40,372 bases of DNA from a virus (IMGVR_UViG_3300021368_002115:1-40372); one strand, 5' to 3'. Counted from the first letter of the stretch, positions 5,243 through 40,362 are shown. Numbers and translations: made by a program. Notes: a model not told the origin generated them from the sequence alone.

Positions 5243-5243
5243 T

Positions 5244-10185: not shown

Positions 10186-10720
10186 TATTTGTGATAGCTT
10201 ACCAGAAAATCCAGCGGATAAATTACTTAATGGAAAACATTCTTATAAAATAGAATTATCTTTTACATTGTTAGATACTTCATCTGATAAAAAAACCTTA
10301 TTTTGTATTCTACCAAAATATTCAGGTATTGATATAGAAAAAGAAAAATTACTTTTATTAGTAGGTAAAAAAGATAAAACTGAGTTTTACAACTTAGACT
10401 ATGAAATTTATCCTCATAAAAAAACACATATATTGTATGAGTATATTTATAGTGAGAAGCTATGTATTACTGTAAACGATAAACTAATAAAAGAAATTAA
10501 TTTAACAGAACCGCTTGGGTTTGATGAAAATCCACACATAATATTCGGGTCAGGAAACTTTCCTAAAAACGGTTTTAACTTAAATTATACAGATGTAAAT
10601 TTCCACGAGTTTAAGTTTTATTCAAATGGAGAGTTATTATCTAATCATGATTTTGAAGAATTTATTTTCGATAAATCTGTTGATAAAACAACAAATTGCA
10701 ATTTTATACATAAACTTTAG
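10139..10720 (+). CDS. Stand-alone degenerate LamG/concanavalin-like protein
   Basis: Motif order THILYEY..LCITVND..IIFGSG..FHEFKFY..HDF..DKTTNCN parallels the LamG inserts of the GT7 proteins. Confidence 0.5.
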   Translation: MLEIRKGNPWIFWPSSICDSLPENPADKLLNGKHSYKIELSFTLLDTSSDKKTLFCILPKYSGIDIEKEKLLLLVGKKDKTEFYNLDYEIYPHKKTHILYEYIYSEKLCITVNDKLIKEINLTEPLGFDENPHIIFGSGNFPKNGFNLNYTDVNFHEFKFYSNGELLSNHDFEEFIFDKSVDKTTNCNFIHKL

Positions 10721-10726
10721 AGTTAT

Positions 10727-20482: not shown

Positions 20483-23400
20483 ATGAACAAACTTTCCAAA
20501 TTTCTCGTAGAGAGTATAATGGAGGATGCGAATCCTATTAAAAAAACCGTAGTTATCTATGTGGGTAGATTTCAACCTATGCACAAAGGTCATGCTGGTA
20601 CTTACCAACACCTTATCAAAAAGTTCGGTAAGGATAATGTATTCGTTGGTACATCTGATAAGGTTGAAAGACCAAAATCACCTTTTAACTTCAAAGAAAA
20701 GGTGAAAATTATGACCACTATGTTTGGAATTCCAAAATCCAAAATACATAAGGTCAAAAATCCATACAAACCCACAGAAATTCTTAAAAAGTTTGATGAA
20801 GAAACAACCGCATTTGTAACTGTTGTGGGTGAAAAGGATAAAAACCGATTAGGTGGTAAATACTTTACACCATATAAAGGTGAACCATCTGAGGGATACT
20901 TAGATAGAGGTTATGTTTATGCTGCACCATCAAGTGGTGGAGGAATAAGTGGTACAGAAACTCGTAATGGTTTATCAGTTGGTTCTGATGACCAGAAAAA
21001 AGATTTCTTTAAGAAACGAGCGTATGGAAAGTTTAATGCAACGATTTTCAAGATGATAACGGATAAACTTAATGAGGGAGTAATTGAAATTCCTAAAGAA
21101 AGAATTGAAGAATGGCTCATCAATGAAAGTTCGAAGATTACATCAGGCCAAGTGGATGATGGGCCAAACTTCTTTTTCCCCAATTATGATGTGTTCTCTC
21201 GTATTAACGTAAAGAGAGCGGCAAACATTGGATATGAGGTGGTAAATATGATTACTTCTAAAGAAATTGAAGATTATTACGACCATCCAATTTATCCCGA
21301 TGGACCAGTAAAGGCTGTTACACCATTCCCAGCTGGTATCTTGGGTACACAAACAGCAACTAACCAAGTTGATATCTATTCAAGTGATGCTTATTCTAAA
21401 TGGTTTACTCATGTAACACGACAAGCGGCAATGGTAGGGTATGAATTAGTAAAAGGATTAGATACTACCAAAGATACTAAAGATGCTGCGTTGGATTCTC
21501 AAAAAGGTGATAAAAAAGCACAAGAAGAGTATGAGGCTTCCTTGAATGAAGTAATTAAGTTACCTGTAAAGGTTGGTGATACTATTTTAACTGGTAGATT
21601 TAAGAACAAAAAGACAGTTGTTAAAACTATTGGTAAAGATGAACATGGAATGCCAACAATCAATGGTAGAAAGGTAGTAAATTTCAGATTAGTAAAAGAA
21701 GGATTTATTGCTGAACTAGGTGGAACTGCTGTAAAGTGTGAAAAGTGTAATCATTCTTGGGATATAGAATCTGAAGATAATGAAAAATACCTTTGTCATT
21801 CATGTGGATGGGATTCTCAAAAACAAGAATACGATTTCGATGCATTTGATTCATGGCAAGAGAAGATGGGATTGAATGAAGAGTTAGATGAGAGAAGTAA
21901 AGGAAAACTAAGACCAGCTGATTTACTTAGAAGGAAGGCAGCGATGGCTGGTAAACGAGCTCAAATAGCAAGAAGAAGAAAGAGAACAATGATGAGGAGA
22001 AAACCTCTTTCTAAACTTAAAAAGATTGCATACAAAAAAGCATACCTACAAGTTTATGATGAATTCAGACAAGAGTTGTTTCCTGGTATTGCTAAAAAAG
22101 ATTTATCAATCCAACAGGCAAAGATAGTTCATAAAAATGTACTAAGAAAAAAGAAAAGAGTTCTTAAAAGAGCAAGATTTAGATTCTTACCTCAACTTAG
22201 AGATGCAGAAGCACAGAAATTCGGTCAGAAAAATGAATTGATGATTGGATATGCAGGACCTGAAGATATGAAAAGGTTTGATAAGAGAAATAAAGAATAT
22301 AGAAAAGATTCTGAATCAAATCAAGAATATCAATACGAACCGATTAAAGAAGGATTAAAAGAATTAGGAATTACAGATTTCAAATCACTATTCAGAAAGA
22401 TGCCTTCTGATTTACAAAAGAGAGTTTACAATCTTAAGAACTTTGGACAGAGAGTAGATAAGCATCCTGAAGGAAATGTACTAAAACACACAATTGTAGT
22501 TGTAAATCGTTCAATCAAAGAAGATGATATTGATATTGCAATCGCAGCAATGTTCCACGATATAGGAAAAGATGAAACTGCTGGTATTCATCCAAAGAAA
22601 GGACACATTACACACTTTGGACATGAGAAAGTATCTGCAGGATTAGTAAAGAAGTACAAAAAGTGGATTGAATCAGTTGGTGGTAACACTGCAAATGTAT
22701 TTTATATTGTTAAAAACCACATGAAGTACAAACAACTATCTGTAATGACACCAAAAAAGGTAAATAAAGTTAAATCATTCAGAGCTTTTGATAAATTAGG
22801 TAAATTCTCTAAACACGATAGAAGTGGATTAGATGAACAATGTAAAAGATTACCAAATGAATCAGAACAAGATTATAGAAATAGGTGTTTTGGTTATGAC
22901 CCACTAACTCCACCACCTGCAGGATTACAAAGGTTAGGTGAAGATTCTAATCCTAATGCACACCCACAAGGTAAAAACAAACTTACTAATCGTACAACTG
23001 TGATGGATATGTTAGATGTAATCTCTCATAAGGAATTTAGAGGTAAGGATTATGAAAAATTATCAGATTCAGAAAAAAGAAAAGTATTAAAGATTGCTAA
23101 ACAACAGAAATTCATCAAAGAAAGTAAAGAGGTGATAACTGAAGGTGGTGCATATGGACATATGTCTCACCCATTCGATACTGATATCAATTTAACCTTT
23201 GGACAACTGAAAGATATCGTAAATAGAGCACTCGAAGGTACACTTGAGTTCACAAGAGAGAAAACTGATGGTCAAGCATTGGCAATTTCATGGAGAGATG
23301 GTAGATTAGTAGCAGCGAGGAACAAAGGACACCTCAAAAACAGAGGTGAGAACGCTTTAGATATCAAAGGTGTATCAGATAAGTTCCAAGGTAGAGGTGG

Positions 23401-24340
23401 GTTGAGTGATGCATACAATTATGCAATGAAAGACCTCTCAAATGCAATCAAATCACTTAACGATAAACAAAGAGATAAGATATTCAAACAAGGTGCGTGT
23501 TTTATGAACCTTGAAGTGATATATCCAACATCAGTAAACGTTATTCCTTACGGCCAGGCGTTACTTGTGTTCCATGGCACGATGGAATATAACGATGAAG
23601 GTGTTGCAATTGGTGAAAACGGTGAAGCAGCAAGAATATTAGCTGGTATGATTAAACAAGTTAACAAAGATGTACAAGATAACTACACCATTCAAGGTCC
23701 TCCTATTGTAAAACTACCAAAATCACAAAACCTATCTAAAAAACGTAGTAAATACTCATCACAAATATCAAAACTACAAAAAGAGTTTGGATTAAAGGAT
23801 ACAGATGGTGTTGCAAACTATCATCAATCATGGTGGGAACAATGGGTTGATAAAAACTCACCATCAACACTTGATAATAAAACCAAAATGGGGTTAGTTA
23901 AGAGATGGGCGTTCATGGATAAGAAGTTTAGATTAGATAAATCTAATATATCTGATGAAAAAACATTAGAATGGGCTAAGAAAACAGATAAAGATAATCA
24001 TAAGAAGATATCAAAAGATAATTTGATGAAATTTGAGAAAATATTCTTAGGATTGGGTGCAGAAGTATTAGAATTCACTTCATCTGCCCTTACTGTTAAT
24101 CCTGATAAGGCAGTTCGTGATATAAAGAAACGAATTGATAAAACAATTAAAGATGTTAAGAAATCAGGTGACCCTAAAAAGATAGAAAAGTTAAAATTAG
24201 AATTAGGAAGATTAAATTCTATTGGTGGGCAAAAGAAAATTGTACCAAACGAGGGTATTGTATTCCTATATAAAGGTAATACCTTCAAACTTACAGGTAC
24301 ATTTGCATCCGTAAATCAAATACTAGGTATTTTCTTCTAA
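20483..24340 (+). CDS. 1285-aa multi-module protein: HxGH nucleotidyltransferase, KOW-like, Zn ribbon, Arg/Lys-rich, HD phosphohydrolase, RNA-ligase-like KxDG domain
   Basis: GRFQPMHKGH..ISGTETR; VKVGDTILTGRFKNK; CEKC..CHSC; HPEGNVLKHT..MFHDIGK..GHEKVS..NHMK; EKTDGQ..NLEVIY..EGIVF..FKLTG. Confidence 0.75.
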   Translation: MNKLSKFLVESIMEDANPIKKTVVIYVGRFQPMHKGHAGTYQHLIKKFGKDNVFVGTSDKVERPKSPFNFKEKVKIMTTMFGIPKSKIHKVKNPYKPTEILKKFDEETTAFVTVVGEKDKNRLGGKYFTPYKGEPSEGYLDRGYVYAAPSSGGGISGTETRNGLSVGSDDQKKDFFKKRAYGKFNATIFKMITDKLNEGVIEIPKERIEEWLINESSKITSGQVDDGPNFFFPNYDVFSRINVKRAANIGYEVVNMITSKEIEDYYDHPIYPDGPVKAVTPFPAGILGTQTATNQVDIYSSDAYSKWFTHVTRQAAMVGYELVKGLDTTKDTKDAALDSQKGDKKAQEEYEASLNEVIKLPVKVGDTILTGRFKNKKTVVKTIGKDEHGMPTINGRKVVNFRLVKEGFIAELGGTAVKCEKCNHSWDIESEDNEKYLCHSCGWDSQKQEYDFDAFDSWQEKMGLNEELDERSKGKLRPADLLRRKAAMAGKRAQIARRRKRTMMRRKPLSKLKKIAYKKAYLQVYDEFRQELFPGIAKKDLSIQQAKIVHKNVLRKKKRVLKRARFRFLPQLRDAEAQKFGQKNELMIGYAGPEDMKRFDKRNKEYRKDSESNQEYQYEPIKEGLKELGITDFKSLFRKMPSDLQKRVYNLKNFGQRVDKHPEGNVLKHTIVVVNRSIKEDDIDIAIAAMFHDIGKDETAGIHPKKGHITHFGHEKVSAGLVKKYKKWIESVGGNTANVFYIVKNHMKYKQLSVMTPKKVNKVKSFRAFDKLGKFSKHDRSGLDEQCKRLPNESEQDYRNRCFGYDPLTPPPAGLQRLGEDSNPNAHPQGKNKLTNRTTVMDMLDVISHKEFRGKDYEKLSDSEKRKVLKIAKQQKFIKESKEVITEGGAYGHMSHPFDTDINLTFGQLKDIVNRALEGTLEFTREKTDGQALAISWRDGRLVAARNKGHLKNRGENALDIKGVSDKFQGRGGLSDAYNYAMKDLSNAIKSLNDKQRDKIFKQGACFMNLEVIYPTSVNVIPYGQALLVFHGTMEYNDEGVAIGENGEAARILAGMIKQVNKDVQDNYTIQGPPIVKLPKSQNLSKKRSKYSSQISKLQKEFGLKDTDGVANYHQSWWEQWVDKNSPSTLDNKTKMGLVKRWAFMDKKFRLDKSNISDEKTLEWAKKTDKDNHKKISKDNLMKFEKIFLGLGAEVLEFTSSALTVNPDKAVRDIKKRIDKTIKDVKKSGDPKKIEKLKLELGRLNSIGGQKKIVPNEGIVFLYKGNTFKLTGTFASVNQILGIFF

Positions 24341-27768: not shown

Positions 27769-29493
27769 ATGGCAGATACTTCATTTTTCGGCAGACTTAC
27801 AAAACTCTTTCGTTCTCAAGCGGTAGTTACTATCGATAAGGACGGAAAGAGAAAAGTATTTGATGGTGATGAAAGACAACAAACAAACTTATCATCATTA
27901 AGAGACCGATATACTAAATTACAGAAATCCTTTTTTGAACAAGCAGGTGGTGCTCAATCAATGGCATACCAACAAGTTCGTAGAGAGGTATTTAGAGATT
28001 ATGATGCAATGGACAATGACCCAATATTAGCATCAGCACTAGATATATACGCAGATGAATGTACATTAAAGAATGAATTCGGTGATGTACTACTTATTCA
28101 ATCAGAAAATCAAAAAGTACAAGAAATATTACAGAACTTATTCTACGATGTATTAAACGTAGAATTTAATCTTTGGCCTTGGACAAGAAACTTGGTAAAG
28201 TATGGAGACTTCTTCTTAGGTTTAGAAGTTGCAGAAGGTAAGGGTGTTGTAAATGCAACACCTCATTCAGTTTACAATACAGAAAGATTAGAAAGAACAG
28301 ACCCATCAAATCCAAATTCAGTAAAGTTTAAGATTACTGAGGACCCGAATGGAAAAGAAGAATATGAAAACTTTGAAATTGCTCACTTTAGGTTGTTAGC
28401 AGATACTAACTGGTTACCATATGGTAAATCTATGATTGAGAATGGTAGAAGATTGTGGAAACAATTATCTCTAATGGAAGATGCTATGTTAATCCATAGA
28501 ATCATGAGAGCACCTGAAAAGAGAGTTTTCAAAATTGATATTGGTAATATCCCACCAACAGAAGTGGATAACTATATGCAGAGAATCATCAACAAGATGA
28601 AGAAAGTTCCTTTCATCGATAGAAATACTGGTGATTATAACTTGAAGTACAATATGCAAAATCTAACTGAAGATTTTTACTTACCAGTTAGAGGTGGAGA
28701 TAGTGGAACACAAATCGATAACCTTGCAGGTTTAGAATACGCTACTATTGAAGATATTGATTACTTAAAAAATAAAATGTTTGCGGCGTTAAAGATTCCA
28801 AAAGCATATTTAGGATACGAAGAAAACATCAATGGTAAAGCTACATTAGCGGCCGAGGATGTTAGATTTGCAAGAACTATCGAGAGAATCCAAAGAACAC
28901 TTATTTCAGAATTATCTAAAATTGCCATTGTACATTTATATGCTCAAGGGATTCAAGATTCAGAAATGGTTAACTTTGAATTACAACTGGTCAACCCTTC
29001 TACAATTTACGAACAAGAAAAAGTAAACTTGTGGAGTGAAAAAATCAGATTGGCTCAAGATATTCAAGGATTAAATATGTTATCTAAAGACTGGGTATAT
29101 GAAAATATCTTTAAGTTAAGTGGTGGTGAACAAAATGATGAAAGAACCAAGATGCTTAATGACTTGAAAGATAGATTCAGATTCCGTTCTATTGAAGATG
29201 AAGGAAATGACCCTGCGATGGAAGATGAACCAGATGATATTGAAGAATCATTGGAACAACTTAAGCAGGAAATCAAAGATAAAGGTGGTAGACCGAGGGA
29301 AGGTGGAACTTATGGAAAAGATAAACACCCACTTGGTAGAGACCCCCTTGGTGATAAGGAAAGAACCAAAAAAAGAAGTAGAACTTCCGAAGAAAAGGCA
29401 ATAAAAATGATTAATGGAATTGCCTCTAAACGTAAATATTTACATGAAGTCAAAGGTATGTTAGATGAATCTAACTTACTTGACAGTGAGTAA
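27769..29493 (+). CDS. Portal protein (T4 gp20-like)
   Basis: LMEDAMLIHRIMRAPEKRVFKIDIGN, EDFYLPVRGG and ALKIP motifs. Confidence 0.95.
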   Translation: MADTSFFGRLTKLFRSQAVVTIDKDGKRKVFDGDERQQTNLSSLRDRYTKLQKSFFEQAGGAQSMAYQQVRREVFRDYDAMDNDPILASALDIYADECTLKNEFGDVLLIQSENQKVQEILQNLFYDVLNVEFNLWPWTRNLVKYGDFFLGLEVAEGKGVVNATPHSVYNTERLERTDPSNPNSVKFKITEDPNGKEEYENFEIAHFRLLADTNWLPYGKSMIENGRRLWKQLSLMEDAMLIHRIMRAPEKRVFKIDIGNIPPTEVDNYMQRIINKMKKVPFIDRNTGDYNLKYNMQNLTEDFYLPVRGGDSGTQIDNLAGLEYATIEDIDYLKNKMFAALKIPKAYLGYEENINGKATLAAEDVRFARTIERIQRTLISELSKIAIVHLYAQGIQDSEMVNFELQLVNPSTIYEQEKVNLWSEKIRLAQDIQGLNMLSKDWVYENIFKLSGGEQNDERTKMLNDLKDRFRFRSIEDEGNDPAMEDEPDDIEESLEQLKQEIKDKGGRPREGGTYGKDKHPLGRDPLGDKERTKKRSRTSEEKAIKMINGIASKRKYLHEVKGMLDESNLLDSE

Positions 29494-29566: not shown

Positions 29567-30436
29567 ATGAAAAAAATAAGACATTCAAAATTTAAGAATA
29601 CGGGTTTTCTATTCGAAATACTAACTCGTCAAATTACAGTCGAAGTCTTAAATGGTAGTGAGGAGAAAGCAAAAGAAATCGTAAGAGAATTCTTTGGTGG
29701 AAAAACTGAATTATCAAAAGAACTTAGACTGTTTAATTTATTAATAAACGAAAAATATAATACAGAATCAAAAGCTGAAAAGTTTATTGATGCTATATTA
29801 GAAGCACATACTAAAATTGATTACTCAAAACTGAAAAGAGAGAAATACAACCTTGTAAAGTCAATCAAAGAAACTTTTGAAATTGGAAACCTCTTATCTT
29901 CTCCAGTTACCAATTACAAAATTTTGGCTTCTATACATAAATTATTCGAAGGAAAGAAAAACGATATTCTTCAAGTAAAAGATGTCTTTGACTCTAAAAT
30001 TACTATCATTGAGCATATTTCCAACTCAACTCCAACTCTTAAGAAAAAAGAGGAAAAGCTTGTTGAAGATTACAAAAAACAAGAAAAAGATTTAAGATTA
30101 CTTACTTATAAAATTCTTGTAGAAACATTTAACAAGAAATATACTAACTTAGATGCCTCTCAAAAGGGTTTATTAAGAGAGTATATTAATAACATAACTA
30201 ATACATCTAAATTTGGTACTTACTTTGAAAAAGAACTTATAAGTACAATTACTGAATTACATAGTTTGTATAAGAATATGGATGATAAGATTACAAAAAT
30301 TAAATTGCGTGAAACTATTAACGTTTTGAAAAAACAAAAAATCGGTAAGAAAATTAACGATGACCAAGTTTCAGCTTTAATGATGTCTTATGAGTTGATT
30401 AAGGAGATAAAAAATGTCAATGGAAAAAAATCTTAA
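29567..30436 (+). CDS. Helical hypothetical protein in the head module
   Basis: Long ORF directly after portal; ATG 29567 (MKKIRHSKFKNTG) preferred to TTG 29552. Confidence 0.75.
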   Translation: MKKIRHSKFKNTGFLFEILTRQITVEVLNGSEEKAKEIVREFFGGKTELSKELRLFNLLINEKYNTESKAEKFIDAILEAHTKIDYSKLKREKYNLVKSIKETFEIGNLLSSPVTNYKILASIHKLFEGKKNDILQVKDVFDSKITIIEHISNSTPTLKKKEEKLVEDYKKQEKDLRLLTYKILVETFNKKYTNLDASQKGLLREYINNITNTSKFGTYFEKELISTITELHSLYKNMDDKITKIKLRETINVLKKQKIGKKINDDQVSALMMSYELIKEIKNVNGKKS

Positions 30437-31112
30437 TAATTTTATTGATGAACTAATTCAAGAAATTGAAAAAGAATTAGATGAAGCAACAACTACCGCT
30501 AATGTGGCAGGTTATAATGTACCTGGTGCTTTTTCTGATGGTGGTAGAAAAGATAAGAAAAGAAAGAAAAAGATTGCAACTCAATTCGGATATAAGATTG
30601 TTGGTAAAATGGATGAAGCCTCTGATTCAGAAATTAAAAAATCTATAAAGAAAAATTCAAAAGGTGGCCCATATTCTGTTGTAGTTCAGAAGGGAAACAT
30701 GAGTAAACATATTTCTCATTCCCAAGATGTTGGTAATGATGTTGATAAAACAATAAAAGTATATAATCAATTTAAGAAAAAACATAGAGCAGGTGTCCAA
30801 ATCATTGATGGATATGGTAAAACTGTATTTTTTGAATCGATAAATGAAGCAAAAGTAAAAAGACCAGTTAATCGTTGGTTAGAATTAAAAAACGATGAAA
30901 CAATGCATCCTCATAAGAAGATGGCAATGGGATTAAAAGAATTAAAATACCAGCTAAGAGAAACTGAAAAGTTTTTCAATTGGTACAATAAAATAAAAAC
31001 TATGAATGAGTTAGATTCTGATAACTATTGGAAAAGAACAAATAGACATATTTATAGTATAAAAGAGAAACTTATCAATATAGCCAAGACAATACAGGAG
31101 ATTGAAAAATGA
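30414..31112 (+). CDS. Modular putative prohead core/internal protein
   Basis: AAGGAG SD; modules split by ELDE, KMDE and ESINE. Confidence 0.7.
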   Translation: MSMEKNLNNFIDELIQEIEKELDEATTTANVAGYNVPGAFSDGGRKDKKRKKKIATQFGYKIVGKMDEASDSEIKKSIKKNSKGGPYSVVVQKGNMSKHISHSQDVGNDVDKTIKVYNQFKKKHRAGVQIIDGYGKTVFFESINEAKVKRPVNRWLELKNDETMHPHKKMAMGLKELKYQLRETEKFFNWYNKIKTMNELDSDNYWKRTNRHIYSIKEKLINIAKTIQEIEK

Positions 31113-31579
31113 AAATAAAAAGAGAACACTTAAAAAATATAGTTAGAGAAACTATGATTGAAGAAAGTGAATACCAAGAATTCTTCAAAAAGGCTTTAGA
31201 AAAAGCTGGTAAATCTATTCCATCAATGTCTGATGAAGAAAAAAAGGAATTCTTTAACAAGATTGAAAAAACTTGGAAGGGTAGAGGAGAAAAAAAGAAT
31301 GAAGGTAATGCGTTTGGAGCTGCTGTTGCAAAAGCTAAAAAAGATGGTGATGATTCATTTGAGGTAGATGGTAAGGAATATAAGGTAGAATCGGTAAACG
31401 AAGGTAAGTTCAGAAAAGAAGAAAGAATGCTGAAAACCCTTGCAAGTGTAGTCAAAATTGATTTTTCTGAAGCACTTGAAGTATTAGAAGAAGATGGTGT
31501 TCTTGAAGCAATGGACCATTTAGAACATGCTATTGAAAGAATCAAGGATGTTCATAAAATATTAAAAAGAAAATCATAA
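31109..31579 (+). CDS. Modular putative prohead core/internal protein
   Basis: AGGAG SD; modules EYQEFFKKAL.., NE-GNAFGAAVAKAK..FEVDGKEYKV, ESVNE-GKFR. Confidence 0.7.
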   Translation: MKIKREHLKNIVRETMIEESEYQEFFKKALEKAGKSIPSMSDEEKKEFFNKIEKTWKGRGEKKNEGNAFGAAVAKAKKDGDDSFEVDGKEYKVESVNEGKFRKEERMLKTLASVVKIDFSEALEVLEEDGVLEAMDHLEHAIERIKDVHKILKRKS

Positions 31580-31756
31580 ATGACTAAAAGAGAATTATAT
31601 GATATCATTAATGAAGAAATCCAAAATGTAAAATTGGATAGAATCACAGAAGAAATCACGAATGAAGATGAAAAACTTATTCGTGAATTAATTCGTCAAG
31701 AGGTATCTGCAATTTTCTTTGATTTATTTAAGAAACGTAAAATGTGGGGAGCATAA
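31580..31756 (+). CDS. Small protein (58 aa), below the ORF-track cutoff
   Basis: MTKRELYDIINEEIQ..FDLFKKRKMWGA; abuts the upstream stop and overlaps the protease start as TAATG. Confidence 0.7.
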   Translation: MTKRELYDIINEEIQNVKLDRITEEITNEDEKLIRELIRQEVSAIFFDLFKKRKMWGA

Positions 31757-32349
31757 TGAGCCAATTATTAATAGAAACAAACTTGTTTGAAGGAGCAGTT
31801 AACGAAGATTCTAGTGGAAGAACTATCGTTAAAGGTATCTTACAAAGAGCAGGTGCGGAAAATCAAAATGGGAGAATATATCCAAAAGAAATTTTGATGA
31901 GAGAAGCTAAAAAGTACGAAACTCTTATTAAAGAAAGAAGAGCATTAGGTGAGTTAGACCATCCTGATTCTTCTGTAATCAACCTAAAGAATGTTTGTCA
32001 TAATGTGAGAGAGATTCATTGGGATGGTGATGATTTGATAGGAACAGTTGAGATTTTACCAACTCCATCAGGTAATATCTTAAAAGAACTACTTAAGGCT
32101 GGTATTTTATTAGGTATATCATCAAGAGGTATGGGTTCAGTAGAACCTTTATCAGGTGGTAAAGTACAAGTTGGTGAAGATTTTGAATTGATTGGTTGGG
32201 ATTTTGTATCTAACCCATCAACTCATGGAGCATTTATGACTCCAATGAATGAATCTGTGAATAGACAACTTATTCAACAAACTGAAGTTTGTAATGAATG
32301 GTGTAAAGCACAGAACATGATGAGAGAAATTATAACAGAATTAAATTAA
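31756..32349 (+). CDS. Prohead core protease (T4 gp21-like)
   Basis: NQNGRIYP, GELDHP, GISSRGMGS and WDFVSNPS motifs; start ATG 31756. Confidence 0.95.
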   Translation: MSQLLIETNLFEGAVNEDSSGRTIVKGILQRAGAENQNGRIYPKEILMREAKKYETLIKERRALGELDHPDSSVINLKNVCHNVREIHWDGDDLIGTVEILPTPSGNILKELLKAGILLGISSRGMGSVEPLSGGKVQVGEDFELIGWDFVSNPSTHGAFMTPMNESVNRQLIQQTEVCNEWCKAQNMMREIITELN

Positions 32350-32353
32350 GGTT

Positions 32354-32539
32354 ATGGGATTTAGTATTCAAGACTATATGTCTAAAAATAAGATTAAACT
32401 AGGTGAGGTTGAACGAGAAATTGGTTCTAACCCTGCTAAAAGTTATAACGATATTCGTAAAACTAACTATGAAGTCAAAATTAATGATGATGGGAAGTTA
32501 GACCTTTACACACATACAAAAGAAATTAAAAAATTATAA
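32354..32539 (+). CDS. Small hypothetical protein (61 aa)
   Basis: Fits the operon packing; TAAGGT upstream. Confidence 0.6.
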   Translation: MGFSIQDYMSKNKIKLGEVEREIGSNPAKSYNDIRKTNYEVKINDDGKLDLYTHTKEIKKL

Positions 32540-32552
32540 TAGGAGAAACATT

Positions 32553-32702
32553 ATGCCACTAGGAGATTTAACACCACAGAAAGAAACTCAACCAGTTGAA
32601 AACAAATCAATTGTAATTGGTGGAGTTCCACAAACAAAAACAAAAATTTACAATACTGGCCAAGAAAATATTGGTGGTGTTGGTGAAGTAAACAAGGGAT
32701 AA
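32553..32702 (+). CDS. Small protein (49 aa), below the ORF-track cutoff
   Basis: AGGAGA SD, then MPLGDLTPQKETQPVENK..GEVNKG; fills the gap exactly. Confidence 0.65.
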   Translation: MPLGDLTPQKETQPVENKSIVIGGVPQTKTKIYNTGQENIGGVGEVNKG

Positions 32703-32706
32703 TAAA

Positions 32707-33825
32707 ATGATTAAACTAGGTAACCTTATCAAAGAAGCAGATGTATTTACTGCTACAAGTAAAGAAACTGGTACAACTTCTGTATTCAAATCTAAAGATG
32801 CAAGAGATGCCGCAATCAAAGCTGGAACTCACGAAAAAAGAAAAGATGATAAGGATGGTGCAGTTAAAGACCCAACAGATAAACCTAAAGTAAACATATT
32901 CAACAAAGATAAAGAAGAACCTAAAAAGGATGAACCTAAAGATGATGGTAGACCAAAAGATTCAACTGGTGGTAGAGTAGGTAATCCTGAAGTAAACAAA
33001 GCAGTTCGTAAGAAAGCACAAAGTTTAGGAATCACTCCACAAAAATTAGGTAAAGAAGAATACGAAAGTAGAATGAAAAAAGCAGCAATTGAAGCTTTAA
33101 CTGATTCAAACTTCCATTCTGAAGCAAGAAAACTGATTTCAGTATTAGAAGATAAACCAGAATGGGCAAAAGACCCAAATCAAGACCCTAACAAACCAGA
33201 TATCTCTTCACCTGAATATGAAAAGTGGCAAAAGACAAGTGTATATTCTTCTGAATTATATGATTCAGCAGAAGGTACTGATGAAATTGCACATGAGGCA
33301 AGTAACCAAGCTGGATGGGATGGTGTATCTGCATTAGATGCAATCGCATTTGATTTGAAAATGAATGGAAGTAAAGATTTAGCACTTAAAATACAAAGTA
33401 TTATTGATGATACAAACGAATCTACAAAATTAAGTAGATTAGTACCAGAATCAATAATCAACGAAGGAACTCGTTCACAAGTTGGTATCATTGATAGAAG
33501 TGGTAAAATTGCATCAGCATATGTTCACTATGATGGATATCCATCTAATATGAAACCAGGCATTAAAAAACACATGAAGAACGAAAAAGATGTTCTTACT
33601 TTAATTAAAAGAGGTGGAGCACGAGGAATTTTCAATGATAAAGATATTGAATATTTCGATAGAAAAGAAAAACCAAGTAAAGGTAATCTTAAAGATTTTC
33701 GTAAGTATGTAGATAATGTTGATAGAAACGGTGGAGCTGAATTTGTATATTTATACAATATGAAAGATAAGAAGTGGTACTTCGCTGATGTATATGGTGA
33801 TAAAGAATTAAAAAAATTATATTAA
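32707..33825 (+). CDS. Modular putative internal head protein with C-terminal GTRS..YVHYDGYP domain
   Basis: Leader MIKLGNLIKE; linker TNE-STKLSRLVPE-SIINE before the last domain. Confidence 0.7.
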   Translation: MIKLGNLIKEADVFTATSKETGTTSVFKSKDARDAAIKAGTHEKRKDDKDGAVKDPTDKPKVNIFNKDKEEPKKDEPKDDGRPKDSTGGRVGNPEVNKAVRKKAQSLGITPQKLGKEEYESRMKKAAIEALTDSNFHSEARKLISVLEDKPEWAKDPNQDPNKPDISSPEYEKWQKTSVYSSELYDSAEGTDEIAHEASNQAGWDGVSALDAIAFDLKMNGSKDLALKIQSIIDDTNESTKLSRLVPESIINEGTRSQVGIIDRSGKIASAYVHYDGYPSNMKPGIKKHMKNEKDVLTLIKRGGARGIFNDKDIEYFDRKEKPSKGNLKDFRKYVDNVDRNGGAEFVYLYNMKDKKWYFADVYGDKELKKLY

Positions 33826-33835
33826 GGAGAGAACA

Positions 33836-34570
33836 ATGAAACTAACCCAACTATTAAAAGAAAACGAAGAAAGACCTCTATCAACAGAGGTTAAAAAACA
33901 TTTTCTTGAAATTGTTTCTACTTACAACAAGTATCAAGAATCAATGGATAGAAAATCAGATATTATTAAAGTAGCTGAAACCCTTGGTGGTATAACAGAA
34001 GCCGCTAGAACACTTGCTATCAAAGAAGCAGGTGATTGGTTCGATAAACACACAGTTAAGAGAAACATGAGTGAATTGGATAAGTTGGGTAAACAATTCG
34101 ATAAAGTTGCTCTTGAGGCTCGTGCACTTGACCAAAGAATGGGTGGATTATACGAAGATATGGGACACATCCTTTCAAGATACTATAAATTCGGTGAGAT
34201 TACTGAAGATGAAATGAGAAACAGATTAGGTATCAAAGAATCATCTGAACCATGTGGTTGTGGTGGTGAATGTGGATGTAGTGAATCAGTAAACGAACAA
34301 GCAGTAGTTGTTTCTAAGAGAACTGAAAACGGAAATATTGTTTCAGTTGTAAAAGAAGAAAAAGATTTGAACGAACAAGAAACTGCTTTGTATGAGTTCG
34401 GTAAAAAATTTGAAACCCTAATGGAAAAAAATTGTCCAACCGATGCATCTAAGTGGTCTTACTACAAATCACAAGCTAAAAAGAAATTTGATGTTTATCC
34501 TTCGGCATATGCTAATGGATGGGCAGCTAAACAATATAAAGGTGCTGGAGGAAGTTGGAAAAAATGTTAA
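33836..34570 (+). CDS. Modular putative internal head protein
   Basis: AAGGAG SD; leader MKLTQLLKE; coiled-coil, CGCGGECGC, ESVNE linker, terminal KFDVYPSAYANGW..YKGAGGSW module. Confidence 0.7.
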   Translation: MKLTQLLKENEERPLSTEVKKHFLEIVSTYNKYQESMDRKSDIIKVAETLGGITEAARTLAIKEAGDWFDKHTVKRNMSELDKLGKQFDKVALEARALDQRMGGLYEDMGHILSRYYKFGEITEDEMRNRLGIKESSEPCGCGGECGCSESVNEQAVVVSKRTENGNIVSVVKEEKDLNEQETALYEFGKKFETLMEKNCPTDASKWSYYKSQAKKKFDVYPSAYANGWAAKQYKGAGGSWKKC

Positions 34571-35967
34571 TTCAAGAAAGATTTAAGTCACCTGATAAGG
34601 TATTTGAGAAAGTATATGGTATCTTTGATAAAAGAGACTATTTCAATACCCTAGGTTTAGCAAAAGTACAAATTCGTAACTTTGAAAATTTCTTGAAAAA
34701 AGGTGATAAGAATGCACAAGCACTATTAGATAAGTTCAAAGGTGATAATAAAAAAGCCCATGAATACATCATTCAAGTAATCCACGATAGACAGAAAGAA
34801 CAAGCATTCGAAGATTTCAAAGCATTCAAATCAGCAGTAAATAAATTAGAATTAGTTTCTAAGGGTAAATCTAAAGAAGCTTATGGAGCTGCAGATTTAG
34901 TTAAGAGTAGAGCTCATAACAATTCACAAAAATATACAATGGCTCTTTACAGTGCAATTCGTAAACAAAAGTTTAACAACTACAAAGATATTCATAAAGA
35001 TGTGGATGATTTACTTGCTAAGAATGAAGGATTCTCATCAGATGCTCAAAGAAAAGCAGCATTTGCAAATGGATACGAAGAAAAAGGTAAGAAGAAAAAC
35101 GAATCAGTAAACGAAGCAATTAAATATAATAAGGATGGATTTGTTACCAAACTGGAAAATGAGGCTGGAAAAGTTGTAAAAGATATTCAGATAGATGGCG
35201 AGAAATTTGTACTAAAGGGAAATAAATATGTTTCCAAAAAAGGTGGTAAAGATTTACATAAATCTCATTTTGGTATTAAAGAATCTGTAAACGAAAATAG
35301 ATTTTTGGATGCTTTGAAAGATTTTTTCAGAAAGGAAGAACCTACATTTGGCCAAATGGCGAAAAGATATAAAAAGAAATCCGATTTTATCAAATGGTTT
35401 GTTAAATCACAAGCAAAGCAAGGTGTAGTATTCAAAAAGGATGGTTATGGTGCCTACATGATGAATAGAATGGGTAGAATTTGGGATAGAGTACATGGTA
35501 AACCAGAAGATAAAAAGTATGTAGGTGAATCAGTAAACGAAGCAATGAGACCATCACAAGTTCGTTCAGCAATCTCAAAGGTTAAAAAAGGACTAATGAG
35601 AAAGTGGAAACAAAAAGGTGGATACGAAAACTTCGGACAAAAAGAACTTTCTCAAATGAAAGATAAGTTTGATTACAATCCATATGGTTCATCTGATGAA
35701 AGACAGATTTCAAAGATGTTAGACGGATTTGATGATTGGGCAATGAACTACGATGGTAATATGAGAGAAGGTAAGAAAAGATTCAAAAGACAAGATGGTA
35801 TTGGTAAAGCAAAATACACTATCTCTTACCATGATGGAAAAAAGAAACACAAAGATGGTAGTGATTTCTTTGATATCAAAATCTTCAAAAACAAAAAAGA
35901 TTTAAGTGATTTTGTTGGTTCACTTGTAAAACAAGGATATAAACTAACAAATGAATCAGTAAACGAA
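34283..35967 (+). repeat. Dispersed 15-bp repeat GAATCAGTAAACGAA encoding ESVNE
   Basis: Exact copies at 34283, 35101, 35527 and 35953; one-mismatch copies at 35281 and 31388; weaker copy (ESINE) at 30834. The 35101 and 35527 copies share 20 bp. Confidence 0.85.
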
Positions 35968-36384
35968 TCAGCAAGTAAGGAAGCAATGGGTATTGCAGCA
36001 TTAACTGGTACTCGTGGTTCTGCAGTTCAAGATTTCATTGATAAGAATAGAATCAACTCAAGAAAACTATTCAACGCTTTGAAGAAAGCAAACCTACAAG
36101 GTAGAATCAACTTCGCATCTGCATTGGCTGGTAAACCTAATAATCCAAATGCAAGACTTACCAAAAAATTATTTGGTGAGGATAAAAAAGAAATTGTTGC
36201 TTTAAGAAAGAAAGCAAAATCTGAAAAGGCATTCTATGATGTACTTGATAAGATTGAAAAGAAGTATGGTAGAAGAGGATTTGAAAAATGGTTAGATAAA
36301 TCTCTAAAAGATTTGAAAATCAATCCTTCTAAATTAAAAACATCAGCTGATAAACAAGAAGCATTATTTCAGGCAAAATTATAA
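34564..36384 (+). CDS. Basic cassette polyprotein (about 8 small modules, four ESVNE linkers)
   Basis: GGAGG upstream of ATG 34564; unrelated short basic modules separated by Glu-ended linkers. Confidence 0.75.
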   Translation: MLIQERFKSPDKVFEKVYGIFDKRDYFNTLGLAKVQIRNFENFLKKGDKNAQALLDKFKGDNKKAHEYIIQVIHDRQKEQAFEDFKAFKSAVNKLELVSKGKSKEAYGAADLVKSRAHNNSQKYTMALYSAIRKQKFNNYKDIHKDVDDLLAKNEGFSSDAQRKAAFANGYEEKGKKKNESVNEAIKYNKDGFVTKLENEAGKVVKDIQIDGEKFVLKGNKYVSKKGGKDLHKSHFGIKESVNENRFLDALKDFFRKEEPTFGQMAKRYKKKSDFIKWFVKSQAKQGVVFKKDGYGAYMMNRMGRIWDRVHGKPEDKKYVGESVNEAMRPSQVRSAISKVKKGLMRKWKQKGGYENFGQKELSQMKDKFDYNPYGSSDERQISKMLDGFDDWAMNYDGNMREGKKRFKRQDGIGKAKYTISYHDGKKKHKDGSDFFDIKIFKNKKDLSDFVGSLVKQGYKLTNESVNESASKEAMGIAALTGTRGSAVQDFIDKNRINSRKLFNALKKANLQGRINFASALAGKPNNPNARLTKKLFGEDKKEIVALRKKAKSEKAFYDVLDKIEKKYGRRGFEKWLDKSLKDLKINPSKLKTSADKQEALFQAKL

Positions 36385-36385
36385 T

Positions 36386-36595
36386 ATGAAACTAAAAGAT
36401 TTATTACCAGAAGGATTTGTAGTAATGTACAAAATAAGAAAAGACCTAAAGAATATGAATATAGGTCCAGCTCAGGCATGGTATAAAGATAAATCCGATG
36501 CAGAAAAGTTTTTGAAATCGGTTGAGAAAGATGGTGGTAAGGGAATGATTGTAAAAGATAAAGCACCAAAATCAAAAATCGATAGAGGAATATAA
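36386..36595 (+). CDS. Small basic protein with MKLKDLLPE leader
   Basis: Operon packing and the shared N-terminal leader. Confidence 0.65.
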   Translation: MKLKDLLPEGFVVMYKIRKDLKNMNIGPAQAWYKDKSDAEKFLKSVEKDGGKGMIVKDKAPKSKIDRGI

Positions 36596-36939
36596 TGAAA
36601 CTCCAAGATATCATAGATGAAATATTCGAAGAAACCACAAATGAAGATTTGAAAAATTGGTTCAAACAAAAGTGGGTGAATATTGGCAAGAAAGATAAGA
36701 GTGGTAAACACCCACCTTGTGGAACAAGTGGTGATAAGAAAGGATATGCGAAATGTGTACCTGCTTCTAAAGCCAAATCTATGACTAAGAAAGAAAAAGA
36801 ATCTGCAACTCGTAGAAAAAGAGCGGCTCAAAACAAAGCAAATAGAGGTGGTAAGGCAAGTAGAGGACAAGGTAAAAAACCAATAAATGTTTCTACCCAT
36901 ACTGGTGGAAGAAAAAGTGGAACTGGTAAAGGTTCTTAA
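36595..36939 (+). CDS. Basic protein with LKNWFKQKWV..CG..YAKCVP domain (possibly DUF5872-like)
   Basis: Leader MKLQDIIDE..TTNE, then a basic Trp/Cys domain. Family name is from memory and unverified. Confidence 0.65.
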   Translation: MKLQDIIDEIFEETTNEDLKNWFKQKWVNIGKKDKSGKHPPCGTSGDKKGYAKCVPASKAKSMTKKEKESATRRKRAAQNKANRGGKASRGQGKKPINVSTHTGGRKSGTGKGS

Positions 36940-36985: not shown

Positions 36986-37306
36986 ATGAGTAAAAGAAAA
37001 TCGATTGTTTCTGTTAAAGTTATCAAAGGAGATGTTAACAGAGCACTTAAAAAGTATAAAAGATTAGTAAATGATTCAGGTCATTTATTGGAACTGAGAG
37101 AAAGAAGATACTACACAAAACCCAAAACAGTTCGTAGAAAGGCAAAACTTCAAGCAATTAGAGAACAACAAAAGGAAACTATACTTGGTAAAATAGCCGA
37201 TGGTAACACAAAACTTAGATTTTATACTAAAAAAAAGAAGAAAAAGGTAGATAAAAGAAAACCTCAACAAAAAAAATCCATAGAAAATAGTAGTTTTAAG
37301 TTATAA
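36986..37306 (+). CDS. rpsU: Phage-encoded ribosomal protein bS21 with Lys-rich C-terminal extension
   Basis: VKVIKGDVNRALKKYKR..G.LLELRERRYYTKPKTVRR matches the bS21 signature. Confidence 0.9.
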   Translation: MSKRKSIVSVKVIKGDVNRALKKYKRLVNDSGHLLELRERRYYTKPKTVRRKAKLQAIREQQKETILGKIADGNTKLRFYTKKKKKKVDKRKPQQKKSIENSSFKL

Positions 37307-38745: not shown

Positions 38746-40362
38746 ATGGCAAATTTTGATTTATCTAAACTTACAGAAGGAAAGAACCCACAAGCAGTTA
38801 TGCTTGCTGAAACAAGAGAGCTTAAAAGCAAATGGGAACAAACTGGACTTCTTGAAGGTTTAGGAGAAAGAGAACAGTCTCAAATTTCTGTTCTTTTAGA
38901 AAACCAAGCAAAACAATTGCTTGATGAAGCTACACAGACTGGTACATCAGCTGGTAGTGAAGAGTGGTCGGGTGTTGCCCTTCCATTAGTAAGAAGAATT
39001 TTCGGTGAAATCGCATCGAAAGAATTCGTTAGTGTACAACCAATGAACCTTCCTTCAGGTCTAATCTTTTATTTAGACTTTAAGTATGGTACAGCTCAAC
39101 CAGGAAATCCTGGATTTAGCGGAAAATCACTTTTCGGTGGTACTGGTTCGGACTTAGGTTCAACTGATTCTGCTGTAAATGGTTTATACGGTGAAGGTAG
39201 ATTCGGATACACAGTAAATGATGTAACTGATGAAGCTACAACTGGTGAACAAACATTCGCAACTGCTTCATGGGCTGAAGTAGGATTTGATGCTTCTTTA
39301 TCAGCTTCAATCGCAGCTGGTGAAATTGCAAAAATTTCTGTTGCAACAAATGTATTAACAAGACCTGATTTAGATGCTGTAAGAAGTTACTACATTTCTT
39401 CATCTGATTTCGCAGGTGCTGATACATTCTACCCTGCTCACTCTAAAGTGAACGGTTCAAACTTTGAATTCTTCGCTAAAGTATCTGATATTACTGCAGG
39501 TGCTGGTGATGGACTTCAAATTAAATTTTCACAACAGCCTGTTGCTGAAAACAGAGGTGACTACGAAGATGGAAACGCTGCTGGTGTTTCTTCAGTAGGT
39601 GATGATTTAGGTATTCCAGAAGTAGACCTAGAGTTGAAGTCTGAAGCAATCGTTGCTAAGACAAGAAAACTTAAGGCTGTATGGACACCTGAGTTAGCTC
39701 AAGACCTTAATGCTTACCACAGTATTGATGCTGAAGCTGAATTAACTTCAATGTTATCTGAGTACATCTCACTAGAGATTGACCTAGAAATCCTTGATAT
39801 GTTAAAAGCTAACGCTTTAACTACTGAATACTGGTCAGTATCATTAGGTGAAGAGTACAACTCTGCAACTGGTGCATGGGTAGCTGGTTCTAACTCTGCT
39901 GCTTACACTAAGAATTCTTGGTTCCAGACTTTAGGTGCTAAACTTAATAAAGTTTCGAACAAGATTCACCAATTAACACTTAGAGGTGGAGCAAACTTCG
40001 TTGTTGCTTCTCCAGATGTTTGTACTATTTTAGAATCAATCCCAGGATTTACTGTATCTGCTGATAAAGATGCTTCATCTTTCGCAGCTGGTGTAACTAC
40101 TGTTGGTTCTATCGCAAACAGATATACTGTGTACAAAAACCCTTATATGACTTCTAACGAAATCTTATTAGGATTCAAAGGTTCAAACTTCCTAGAAACA
40201 GGAGCTGTATATGCACCTTATGTACCGTTAATCATGACACCTCTAGTATATGACCCAACTAACTTTACACCAAGAAGAGGTGTAATGACTAGATACGCTA
40301 AGAAAATGGTAAGACCAGAATTCTATGGTAAAATCTATGTTAAAGATTTAGCTAACGTATAA
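38746..40362 (+). CDS. Major capsid protein (T4 gp23-like)
   Basis: LPLVRR, VQPMNLPSGLIF, AKTRKLKAVWTPELAQDLNAYH, YAPYVPL and GVMTRY motifs; TAAGGAG SD. Confidence 0.97.
   Translation: MANFDLSKLTEGKNPQAVMLAETRELKSKWEQTGLLEGLGEREQSQISVLLENQAKQLLDEATQTGTSAGSEEWSGVALPLVRRIFGEIASKEFVSVQPMNLPSGLIFYLDFKYGTAQPGNPGFSGKSLFGGTGSDLGSTDSAVNGLYGEGRFGYTVNDVTDEATTGEQTFATASWAEVGFDASLSASIAAGEIAKISVATNVLTRPDLDAVRSYYISSSDFAGADTFYPAHSKVNGSNFEFFAKVSDITAGAGDGLQIKFSQQPVAENRGDYEDGNAAGVSSVGDDLGIPEVDLELKSEAIVAKTRKLKAVWTPELAQDLNAYHSIDAEAELTSMLSEYISLEIDLEILDMLKANALTTEYWSVSLGEEYNSATGAWVAGSNSAAYTKNSWFQTLGAKLNKVSNKIHQLTLRGGANFVVASPDVCTILESIPGFTVSADKDASSFAAGVTTVGSIANRYTVYKNPYMTSNEILLGFKGSNFLETGAVYAPYVPLIMTPLVYDPTNFTPRRGVMTRYAKKMVRPEFYGKIYVKDLANV

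What the first reader, a model, noticed from the sequence alone, without database searches (positions are those of the whole stretch)
30834..36384. ESVNE-delimited cassette polyproteins with a conserved 15-bp DNA linker: possible recombination-shuffled payload array
Seen: GAATCAGTAAACGAA exactly at 34283, 35101, 35527 and 35953, with near copies at 35281, 31388 and 30834, spread over four genes. In the 34564 gene it separates unrelated basic modules (e.g. AIKYNKDG.., NRFLDALK.., AMRPSQVR.., SASKEAMG..), with further Glu junctions (KNE-G, MRE-G, FGE-D). Inference: the linker is both a prohead-protease site and a microhomology that allows in-frame gain, loss and exchange of small effector domains, giving an integron-like variable payload injected at infection. 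Codon bias explains part of the DNA identity.
Basis: partly seen in the sequence, partly recalled or inferred. Interest (0 to 1): 0.82.

Follow-up and report, generated by a model that had tools for sequence, protein, structure and literature searches.

The report
Shuffled phage head-cargo cassette polyproteins
A marine T4-like phage strings small, unrelated basic protein units into its head-assembly genes with one 15-base linker at which related phages gain, lose, reorder and move these units, and the same linker likely spells the cut site of the phage's head protease, so each virus would carry and inject its own mix of small proteins whose jobs are unknown.

Summary
Observation confirmed: GAATCAGTAAACGAA (ESVNE) is exact at four places and near at three, in four genes between the portal and capsid genes of a T4-like, bS21-encoding phage. 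Shuffling is shown. In relatives, 91-98% identical DNA blocks begin and end at the linker. Modules change order, move between genes, and reach a second locus over 100 kb away. Codon bias does not explain the DNA: 148 of 234 ESVNE are exact, against 4% to about 25% expected. Cleavage is inferred, not measured. The linker fits T4 gp21's L/I-X-E rule, such sites are depleted inside modules, and one module exists elsewhere as a free gene whose Met sits at the predicted cut. That module also occurs in a second polyprotein system with another linker (xGG) and a polyvalent-protein domain. No integrase or attC-like site was found, so 'integron-like' is only an analogy; general recombination is likelier, and some crossovers fall inside modules. 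No module has a known function, so anti-defence is a guess. I found no paper describing this. This scan has reported the same system on other genomes. Verdict: new variant of T4-type internal-protein cargo.

The parts
27769..29493 (+). T4 gp20-type portal (upstream anchor of the cargo region)
   Evidence: Pfam PF07230 E 2e-66
29567..30436 (+). Conserved 289-aa gene rich in [ILV]xE sites; likely a degradable prohead core protein
   Evidence: Fixed length across loci; 4.9 sites per 100 aa, 172 vs 88 shuffled; function inferred
30414..31112 (+). Cassette host gene 1: fixed N and C parts with one inserted module (about 30618-30848) ending in ESINE
   Evidence: Most orthologues run from about 149 aa (no insert) to 887 aa
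30834..30848 (+). Linker, near copy (ESINE, 3 mismatches)
31109..31579 (+). Cassette host gene 2: fixed N part, then modules GNAF.. and GKFR.. joined by ESVNE
   Evidence: Orthologues 63-488 aa; GKFR module in 8 of 47 complete regions, in 4 settings including free genes
31388..31402 (+). Linker, 1 mismatch (ESVNE)
31756..32349 (+). T4 gp21-type prohead protease (S77), the likely processing enzyme; own LLIE|T near the start and MNE|SVN near the end
   Evidence: PF03420 E 4e-27; PDB 5jbl E 1.6e-16
32707..33825 (+). Cassette host gene 3: leader MIKLGNLIKE, variable middle, GTRS.. module after ESIINE (33466-33822)
   Evidence: Orthologues 133-951 aa; GTRS module in 24 of 47 regions, 5 as free genes; phrog_1987, unknown function
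33836..34570 (+). Cassette host gene 4: leader MKLTQLLKE, fixed N domain, Cys-rich linker, ESVNE, DUF5872-like tail
34283..34297 (+). Linker, exact
34564..36384 (+). 606-aa polyprotein: leader MLIQE, then eight modules (34579-35028, 35029-35100, 35116-35280, 35296-35526, 35542-35769, 35770-35952, 35968-36180, 36181-36381)
35101..35115 (+). Linker, exact
35281..35295 (+). Linker, 1 mismatch in the window, exact in contigs of 6 runs
35527..35541 (+). Linker, exact
35770..35952 (+). GKKRF module: 62-aa three-strand-plus-helix domain; found as a free gene, with a short leader, as a cassette, and in xGG-linked polyproteins
35953..35967 (+). Linker, exact
36386..36595 (+). Single module with leader MKLKDLLPE; the same family sits inside polyproteins of relatives
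   Evidence: 12 of 47 regions, 9 inside polyproteins and 3 free
36595..36939 (+). DUF5872-like module with leader MKLQDIIDE; fused to the polyprotein in some relatives
   Evidence: 22 free and 4 fused
36986..37306 (+). Phage ribosomal protein bS21
   Evidence: PF01165 E 3e-12; TIGR00030
37472..38713 (+). Acidic scaffold-like protein, 7 [ILV]xE sites per 100 aa; role inferred from position and make-up
38746..40362 (+). Major capsid protein gp23 with LLDE61|A62, the likely maturation cut
   Evidence: PF07068 E 1e-76; motif present in all full-length N-termini printed

Best explanation
The late genes between portal and capsid of this T4-like phage are chains of small basic modules that related phages gain, lose, reorder and move at a 15-base in-frame linker, and the chains are likely packed into the prohead and cut at the linker's glutamates by the neighbouring head protease into separate small proteins that would enter the host with the DNA. 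Step 1 (shown): each gene has a fixed start or a short leader ending in [LI]xE, then 0 to about 8 modules of about 77 aa, pI about 9.5. Step 2 (shown as outcome): modules are exchanged with the linker at both ends, within genes, between genes and between two distant loci. Step 3 (inferred): the exchange is done by the phage's general RecA/UvsX-type recombination acting on the 15-16 base direct repeat, between co-infecting genomes or through excised circles; use keeps the repeat uniform at silent sites, and because the repeat is also the cut site, a swap at it yields a correctly released product. Step 4 (inferred from T4): the leader targets the chain to the prohead core and the gp21-type protease cuts after Glu, often twice (hydrophobic-x-E|SVNE|A/G). 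Step 5 (weakest): the released proteins act in the first minutes of infection against host defences or on host functions, as T4 IPI does; I put this at about 0.45.
For: Position among portal, S77 protease, scaffold and gp23. Orthologous genes vary by whole modules: about 149-887, 63-488 and 133-951 aa. Homology breakpoints among 411 proteins from 81 loci: right ends near ES[VIL]NE 95 of 481 (random 22+-5), peak exactly on the last Glu; left ends 90 of 456 (22+-5), peak on the first Glu, so shared blocks carry the linker at both ends. DNA blocks of 94-98% identity run linker to linker (L046 35524-35967, 98%; L049; L291 with modules in the opposite order). Exact 15-mer in 88 of 122 and 148 of 234 ESVNE against 4.4% from codon use; Val GTA 86 of 87, 102 of 109, 14 of 15, 13 of 13 while silent sites in the protease fall from 0.64 to 0.45, the saturation level. 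166 of 166 distinct exact copies are in frame 0; 362 copies on the coding strand and 0 on the other. Second locus in two complete relatives with several cassettes 89-95% identical to head-locus cassettes of other phages. T4 gp21 cuts after L/I-X-E, first seen at a Glu-Ala bond (PMC9026906, passages); here the residue after the linker is Ala or Gly in 179 of 297 and the capsid has LLDE61|A. [ILV][not N]E is depleted in module cores (47 vs 69.8+-7.7, ratio 0.67; enzymes 1.33; Asp control 1.12). The GKKRF module starts right after Glu in 151 of 156 internal copies and SASK in 152 of 166; 36 short GKKRF homologues have no leader and begin there. RecA-family gene in 2 of 2 complete relatives.
Against: No cleavage, packaging, ejection or expression was measured; no cultured phage carries the 606-aa gene. 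Val at P3 departs from the L/I of T4's rule. 47 candidate sites remain inside cores, and the depletion vanishes for sites followed by A/G (8 vs 9.0). Most breakpoints are not at ES[VIL]NE: 95 of 481; the looser [VILM]xE holds 291 of 481 against 136 at random. A common crossover lies inside the GKKRF module at 35904. Many junctions (KNE|G, MRE|G, IDE|G) share only 3-4 bases, too few for homology-driven exchange as they stand. The exact 15-mer decays with distance: 73 of 87, 61 of 109, 6 of 15, 0 of 13. Context-matched codon controls raise the null to about 0.2-0.25 (my arithmetic: 47 of 103 and 79 of 117; these controls include decayed linkers). Only contigs were available: repeat-linked joints (35542-35970, 35116-35790) have sides under 30 bases and may come from other strains. 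No module has a known function.
Confidence: 0.74

Rival explanations
1. Same chains and same cutting, but the released pieces are basic filler: they neutralise or condense DNA or help shape the core (like T4 IPII, IPIII, gp67, gp68). Shuffling is a near-neutral by-product of the repeat and strong phage recombination.
For: 89% of 105 piece clusters are net basic, median pI 9.5. No enzyme or defence-related domain found. T4 IPII and IPIII have no known target, and IPIII loss affects head assembly (PMC9026906, passages).
Against: Modules are unrelated, and at least one is a well-folded domain with a conserved H-D-G-x-K-K-H-K-D-G-S-D-F-F patch (pLDDT 86.6). It also exists as a leaderless free gene and in another polyprotein system beside a polyvalent-protein domain. 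Filler would not need over 100 different sequences.
Confidence: 0.3
2. ESVNE is a flexible spacer of an uncut multidomain protein; the repeat matters only as DNA.
For: No cleavage measured; Val instead of Leu/Ile at P3; Ser/Asn/Glu are common in spacers.
Against: Glu is fixed at the last position even where the DNA repeat is gone (151 of 156, 152 of 166). Ala/Gly follows in 179 of 297. The same kind of motif marks the capsid, scaffold, protease and leaders. Sites are depleted inside modules. Free homologues start at the predicted cut.
Confidence: 0.1
3. A site-specific recombinase recognises the 15-mer, as an integron integrase recognises attC.
For: Strong silent-site conservation (Val GTA about 96%, Ser TCA 80%); one orientation only; modules move over 100 kb.
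Against: No PF00589 or PF00239 match in 2 of 2 complete relatives. The 15-mer is no palindrome and no inverted repeats flank the cassettes. Crossovers also occur inside modules and at 3-4 base junctions. A host or unknown recombinase is not excluded.
Confidence: 0.07
4. Codon bias plus misassembly: the repeat is only the favourite codons of a short peptide, and changed orders are assembler errors at repeats.
For: A+T-rich genome; many contigs end in this region; context bias favours GTA before AA.
Against: 63-72% exact against 4% to about 25% expected. A 15-base repeat is shorter than assembly words (general knowledge), and contigs of several studies bridge the window's junctions. Rearranged genes stay open and the repeat is in frame in 166 of 166.
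Confidence: 0.02

Closest known systems
Phage T4 internal proteins IPI, IPII, IPIII and Alt (capsid targeting sequence, gp21 processing)
   Same: T4-type portal, gp21 protease, scaffold and gp23 next door; short N-terminal leaders ending in [LI]xE; small basic mature proteins; a variable set between related phages (PMC9026906, PMC9958956, PMC3012670; passages).
   Different: T4 uses one gene per protein and removes only an N-terminal propeptide. Here one leader carries up to 8 or more unrelated modules with internal sites, and the site doubles as a DNA repeat. No module showed similarity to the T4 proteins in Pfam or PHROGs.
Polyvalent proteins of phages and conjugative elements (Iyer et al. 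2017, PMC5512222)
   Same: Many unrelated domains in one chain, variable architecture, predicted head packaging and proteolytic release (passages). The GKKRF module shares a chain with LPD11 in P0070.
   Different: Those carry recognisable enzymes (ART, RNase, ParB, SF2) and an embedded metallopeptidase. Here modules are 40-150 aa with no known domain, the protease is a separate head gene, and there is a fixed linker; the word 'linker' does not occur in that paper's main text.
PeSL cassettes of RB49/phi1 (Arbiol et al. 2010, PMC2839356)
   Same: Short conserved direct repeats flank ORFan cassettes in T4-type phages. Recombination between them makes mini-circles and shuffles cassettes with no dedicated recombinase found (passages).
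   Different: PeSLs are intergenic promoter/stem-loop elements and move whole genes. Here the repeat is 15-16 bases, protein-coding, in frame, inside late genes, without a hairpin.
bS21-encoding phages (Chen et al. 2022, PMC9723584)
   Same: bS21 among terminase, portal, protease and capsid genes with variable hypothetical genes (passages).
   Different: There bS21 is on the opposite strand and the phages are freshwater; here it is on the same strand. The word 'cleav' does not occur in the main text; supplements not read.
Integrons
   Same: Arrays of small mobile cassettes of unknown function in one orientation.
   Different: No integrase, no attC-like hairpin; cassettes are parts of a protein, not genes. 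Integron features are from my own knowledge.

Membership tests
T4-type internal head proteins (CTS plus gp21 processing) | T4-type gp21 prohead protease in the same phage | tested here: met
   PF03420 E 4e-27; PDB 5jbl E 1.6e-16
T4-type internal head proteins (CTS plus gp21 processing) | Short N-terminal propeptide ending in L/I-X-E | tested here: met
   [ILV]xE in the first 14 aa: 126 of 132, 91 of 102, 79 of 115, 67 of 108, 32 of 35 in five cargo families, against 2 of 114 portals and 0 of 73 of the 289-aa gene; only 17 of 68 in the 606-aa family and 27 of 113 terminases. Motif only; likeness to the T4 CTS sequence was not aligned
T4-type internal head proteins (CTS plus gp21 processing) | Small basic mature proteins | tested here: met
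   105 clusters, median 77 aa, median pI 9.5, 80% above pI 9; mature ends are predicted
T4-type internal head proteins (CTS plus gp21 processing) | Cut by the protease, present in the head, ejected into the cell | not testable with these tools
   No cultured carrier; no proteomics
T4-type internal head proteins (CTS plus gp21 processing) | One protein per gene, N-terminal cut only | tested here: not met
   Up to 8 modules in the window gene and more in relatives; hence a variant, not a plain member
Polyvalent proteins (Iyer 2017) | Several unrelated domains in varying order, in a late or packaging gene context | tested here: met
Polyvalent proteins (Iyer 2017) | Known conflict domains (ART, ParB, PBECR, LPD series) or an embedded metallopeptidase | tested here: not met
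   None in 109 modules or 53 long cargo proteins; LPD11 only in an xGG-linked protein that shares one module. Remote likeness not excluded
PeSL-type shuffling | Direct repeats at cassette borders | tested here: met
PeSL-type shuffling | Repeat is an intergenic promoter plus stem-loop | tested here: not met
   166 of 166 exact copies lie in frame inside ORFs; no hairpin at the repeat
PeSL-type shuffling | Excised mini-circles | tested here: inconclusive
   Only assembled contigs; joints with sides under 30 bases
Integron | Tyrosine integrase linked to the array | tested here: not met
   0 of 2 complete relatives, control rang in 14 of 14; none among the window's ORFs scanned; the window is only about 19% of its genome
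Integron | attC-like imperfect inverted repeats at cassette ends | tested here: not met
   (25 longest of 54 inverted pairs shown; none brackets a cassette end)

The most novel reading that the evidence does not exclude
A self-formatting diversity generator: one 15-base word is at once the recombination handle and the code for the head-protease site, so any small gene captured between two copies is packed, cut free and injected. Marine and freshwater jumbo phages thereby trade a pool of hundreds of uncharacterised day-zero anti-defence proteins, across genes, across loci and even with phages whose polyproteins use a different linker (xGG).
Probability: 0.4. Interest if true: 0.88.

Novelty: new variant of a known kind. 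Interest (0 to 1): 0.74.

Why it matters
If the chains are cut and injected, the linker is a ready-made tag for finding virion-delivered proteins in uncultured phages. It marks over 100 module clusters in about 310 fetched loci (overlapping). One module alone has at least 1,206 longer carrier proteins. These are direct candidates for new anti-defence or host-takeover proteins that act before phage genes are expressed. It would also show a way to evolve payloads in which the DNA crossover point and the protein cut point are the same five codons, and it offers a natural design for loading several proteins into one capsid.

Tried and rejected
Function search gave nothing. 0 of 109 modules reached a Pfam cut-off (10 weak sub-cut-off hits). 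PHROGs hit 5 of 109: four unknown-function families and one weak integrase hit, E 1e-4 with no passing stretch, rejected. PADLOC 0 of 15; NCBIfam only bS21. 53 long cargo proteins gave DUF3008 twice and one weak RNase_J_C hit. ESM Atlas gave no score above 0.76 for two modules. The weak Pfam hit of the 606-aa gene to the anthrax lethal factor middle domain (21.4 bits, under the cut-off of 25, no passing stretch) spans a Lys-rich junction and was dismissed. Single-sequence fold of the whole 606-aa chain failed (pLDDT 47). The GKKRF model was good (86.6), but Foldseek found nothing at E 0.001 in PDB or BFVD and VIA-align's best Z was 6.0 to PH-domain halves, a common arrangement; PDB sequence search gave nothing under E 0.1. 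A 388-aa gene of cultured Mel-JY01 in the same slot looked ADP-ribosyltransferase-like by eye; Pfam and PDB did not support it. Repeat-to-repeat deletions in reads could not be tested: all 8 runs laid were contigs. My homology-based splitting over-cut some modules (417 families), so I quote the stricter 105 clusters, which include composites and a few fixed domains. In one search one query (g244C) was out of frame and is dropped, and another began two codons late. The 47 regions include the window and are biased toward GKKRF carriers, because 74 loci were fetched with that module. Gene labels are best-hit labels and sometimes name the wrong host gene; one search uses anchors. L005 and L078 genomes were not held. 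No complex was predicted. Literature searches found no description of this system. One search listed 20 of 173 papers, all 20 matching only 'esine' in unrelated senses. Most subscription papers are outside the library, and no supplements were read.


Full report
Observation. The 15-mer GAATCAGTAAACGAA is exact at 34283, 35101, 35527 and 35953, one base off at 31388 and 35281, and three off at 30834. There are 14 matches within three mismatches against 2.48+-1.57 in shuffles. The seven named copies are in frame in four genes and read ESVNE six times and ESINE once. Contigs from public marine runs bridge all junctions of the 606-aa gene with 0-1 differences, so the window's order is real. In six of the runs base 35286 makes 35281 a fifth exact copy.

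Setting. The region is the head module of a T4-like phage: terminase, gp20 portal, S77/gp21 protease, bS21, acidic scaffold and gp23 capsid. The record is about 19% of a genome; two complete relatives are 276 and 287 kb. Five marine or seawater runs of four studies hold 0.84-0.94 of its words; one may be the source. The nearest cultured phages by protease are Microcystis phage Mel-JY01 (63.6%) and Flavobacterium phage immuto (52%). They keep the gene order, and I saw no ESVNE in their printed genes; the 606-aa gene has no match among 50,697 phage records. The host is not established; PMC9723584 (passages) predicts Bacteroidetes for freshwater bS21 phages.

Shuffling is shown. I fetched viral loci with the protease, the capsid, the 244-aa gene and one module. 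Core genes keep their length while the genes between them vary by whole modules: mostly about 149-887 aa for the 30414 gene, 63-488 for 31109 and 133-951 for 32707. In an all-against-all comparison of 411 proteins from 81 loci, right ends of shared blocks lie near ES[VIL]NE in 95 of 481 cases (random 22+-5) with a peak on the last Glu. Left ends do so in 90 of 456 (22+-5) with a peak on the first Glu. Shared blocks therefore carry the linker at both ends, the mark of exchange at a direct repeat. At DNA level, L046 matches 35524-35967 at 98% and L049 35526-35967 at 98%, and L291 holds three of the window's modules in the opposite order. Among 47 complete, non-identical regions (window included; biased toward GKKRF carriers) the window's modules occur in 1 to 26. 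SASK.. sits in three host genes, and GKFR.., GTRS.. and the 69-aa gene occur both free and fused. GKKRF has roughly 28 different left neighbours in 44 copies (rough clustering). Two complete relatives have a second locus over 100 kb away with the same 15-mer and several cassettes 89-95% identical to head-locus cassettes of other phages. Against a tidy picture: most breakpoints are not at the full linker (291 of 481 lie near any [VILM]xE, against 136 at random), many junctions keep only the Glu codon and one more base, and a frequent crossover lies inside a module at 35904.

The DNA is conserved beyond codon bias. In the window, 4 of 6 ESVNE are exact where codon use gives 3.5-6.2% each (P about 2e-4 or less). 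Across loci 88 of 122 and 148 of 234 are exact, against 4.4%. A generous null from neighbouring-codon controls, which include decayed linkers, is about 0.2-0.25 (my arithmetic). The Val codon stays GTA in 86 of 87, 102 of 109, 14 of 15 and 13 of 13 linkers while four-fold sites in the protease fall to the saturation value of 0.45. The full 15-mer, however, fades from 73 of 87 to 0 of 13 in the most distant phages. All 166 distinct exact copies are in frame 0, and none of 362 lies on the other strand. I read this as a repeat kept uniform by exchange within a gene-sharing group.

Which recombination. Two complete relatives have a RecA-family gene and no tyrosine or serine recombinase; the repeat is not palindromic and cassettes lack inverted ends. 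'Integron-like' is thus an analogy. The closest tested precedent is PeSL shuffling in RB49/phi1, where short direct repeats give mini-circles with no dedicated recombinase found (PMC2839356, passages). Ongoing exchange could not be shown: only contigs were served, and the joints at repeats have sides under 30 bases.

Cleavage is inferred. T4 gp21 cuts after L/I-X-E, degrades core proteins and trims short capsid-targeting propeptides from internal proteins (PMC9026906 and PMC9958956, passages). Here five cargo families begin with a leader holding [ILV]xE in 62-95% of members, against 2 of 114 portals; the 606-aa family does so in only 17 of 68. The capsid has LLDE61|A, near T4's 65-residue propeptide. 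[ILV][not N]E is depleted in module cores (47 vs 69.8+-7.7) but enriched in the window's enzymes (ratio 1.33), and the Asp control is flat; 47 sites remain. The best natural experiment is the GKKRF module. It starts right after Glu in 151 of 156 internal copies. 36 short homologues have no leader and begin at that point. 19 have a 6-20 aa leader, 11 of them ending in Glu exactly there; a few short hits are probably fragments. It folds as a compact three-strand, one-helix domain (pLDDT 86.6). It also occurs in three proteins joined by a different linker, [FYM][AS]xGG, one of which holds the polyvalent-protein domain LPD11.

Function is open. The 105 clusters of linker-bounded pieces have median length 77 aa and median pI 9.5. 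None of 109 modules reaches a Pfam cut-off; PHROGs, PADLOC, NCBIfam, the ESM Atlas and fold searches name nothing. By analogy with T4 IPI, which blocks GmrSD, and the diverse internal proteins of T-even phages (PMC3012670, passages), early counter-defence is my first guess, about 0.45; basic filler is the main rival.

Known and new. It works like T4 internal proteins in delivery, like polyvalent proteins in layout (PMC5512222, passages) and like PeSL cassettes in mobility. It fails a defining test of each: one protein per gene; known conflict domains or embedded peptidase; intergenic promoter repeat. Nine searches found no paper on it. I read passages only, of the papers cited plus PMC9503650 and PMC5694885, saw PMC4122927 and PMC10052503 only as listings, and read no supplements, which may list these genes. 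This scan has reported the same ESVNE system and related ones on other genomes; those notes are unchecked and are not counted as support. A sequence look-up found no look-alike window.

Verdict. A real feature. Shuffling is shown, processing is likely, effector function is untested. New variant of a known kind; interest 0.74.

Noticed in passing
L309 (G002 about 230-235 kb) and L310 (G003 about 84-90 kb): A second cassette locus over 100 kb from the head genes carries the same exact 15-mer and several modules 89-95% identical to head-locus cassettes of other phages.
   Followed up: partly
P0070, P0075, P0153 (database proteins): A different polyprotein system joined by [FYM][AS]xGG (10, 2 and 6 copies, no ESVNE) carries the GKKRF module; P0070 also has LPD11 and DUF6496.
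   Followed up: partly
window 1011, 2125, 20454, 24365, 27326, 29519, 36955, 37312 and 5 more: TATTTATA occurs 13 times on the coding strand and once on the other; eight copies lie just upstream of gene starts. Possibly a late promoter; it is the reverse complement of the T4 late promoter as I recall it.
   Followed up: no
window 8779-19829: Eight radical SAM genes in a row (four with SPASM hits), followed by a dTDP-sugar epimerase-like gene.
   Followed up: no
window 3746-8782: Three glycosyltransferase family 7 genes, each fused to a laminin G-like domain, with a cytidylyltransferase-like gene between them; likely virion or host surface sugar modification.
   Followed up: no
window 20483-24340: 1285-aa protein with cytidylyltransferase-like and HD domains just upstream of the terminase region; Mel-JY01 has a cytidylyltransferase-like gene in the same place.
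   Followed up: no
window 36986-37306: bS21 lies on the same strand as the head genes, unlike the reverse-strand bS21 of the clades in PMC9723584, and has a long Lys-rich tail.
   Followed up: no
window 35904: Many relatives switch sequence at this base inside the GKKRF module, giving chimeric module ends.
   Followed up: partly
L304-L306: The GKKRF module also occurs in contigs of 422-676 kb, i.e. megaphages.
   Followed up: no
window 32553-32702: A 49-aa Gly-rich ORF with variable counterparts in some relatives sits between the 61-aa gene and the 372-aa gene.
   Followed up: no
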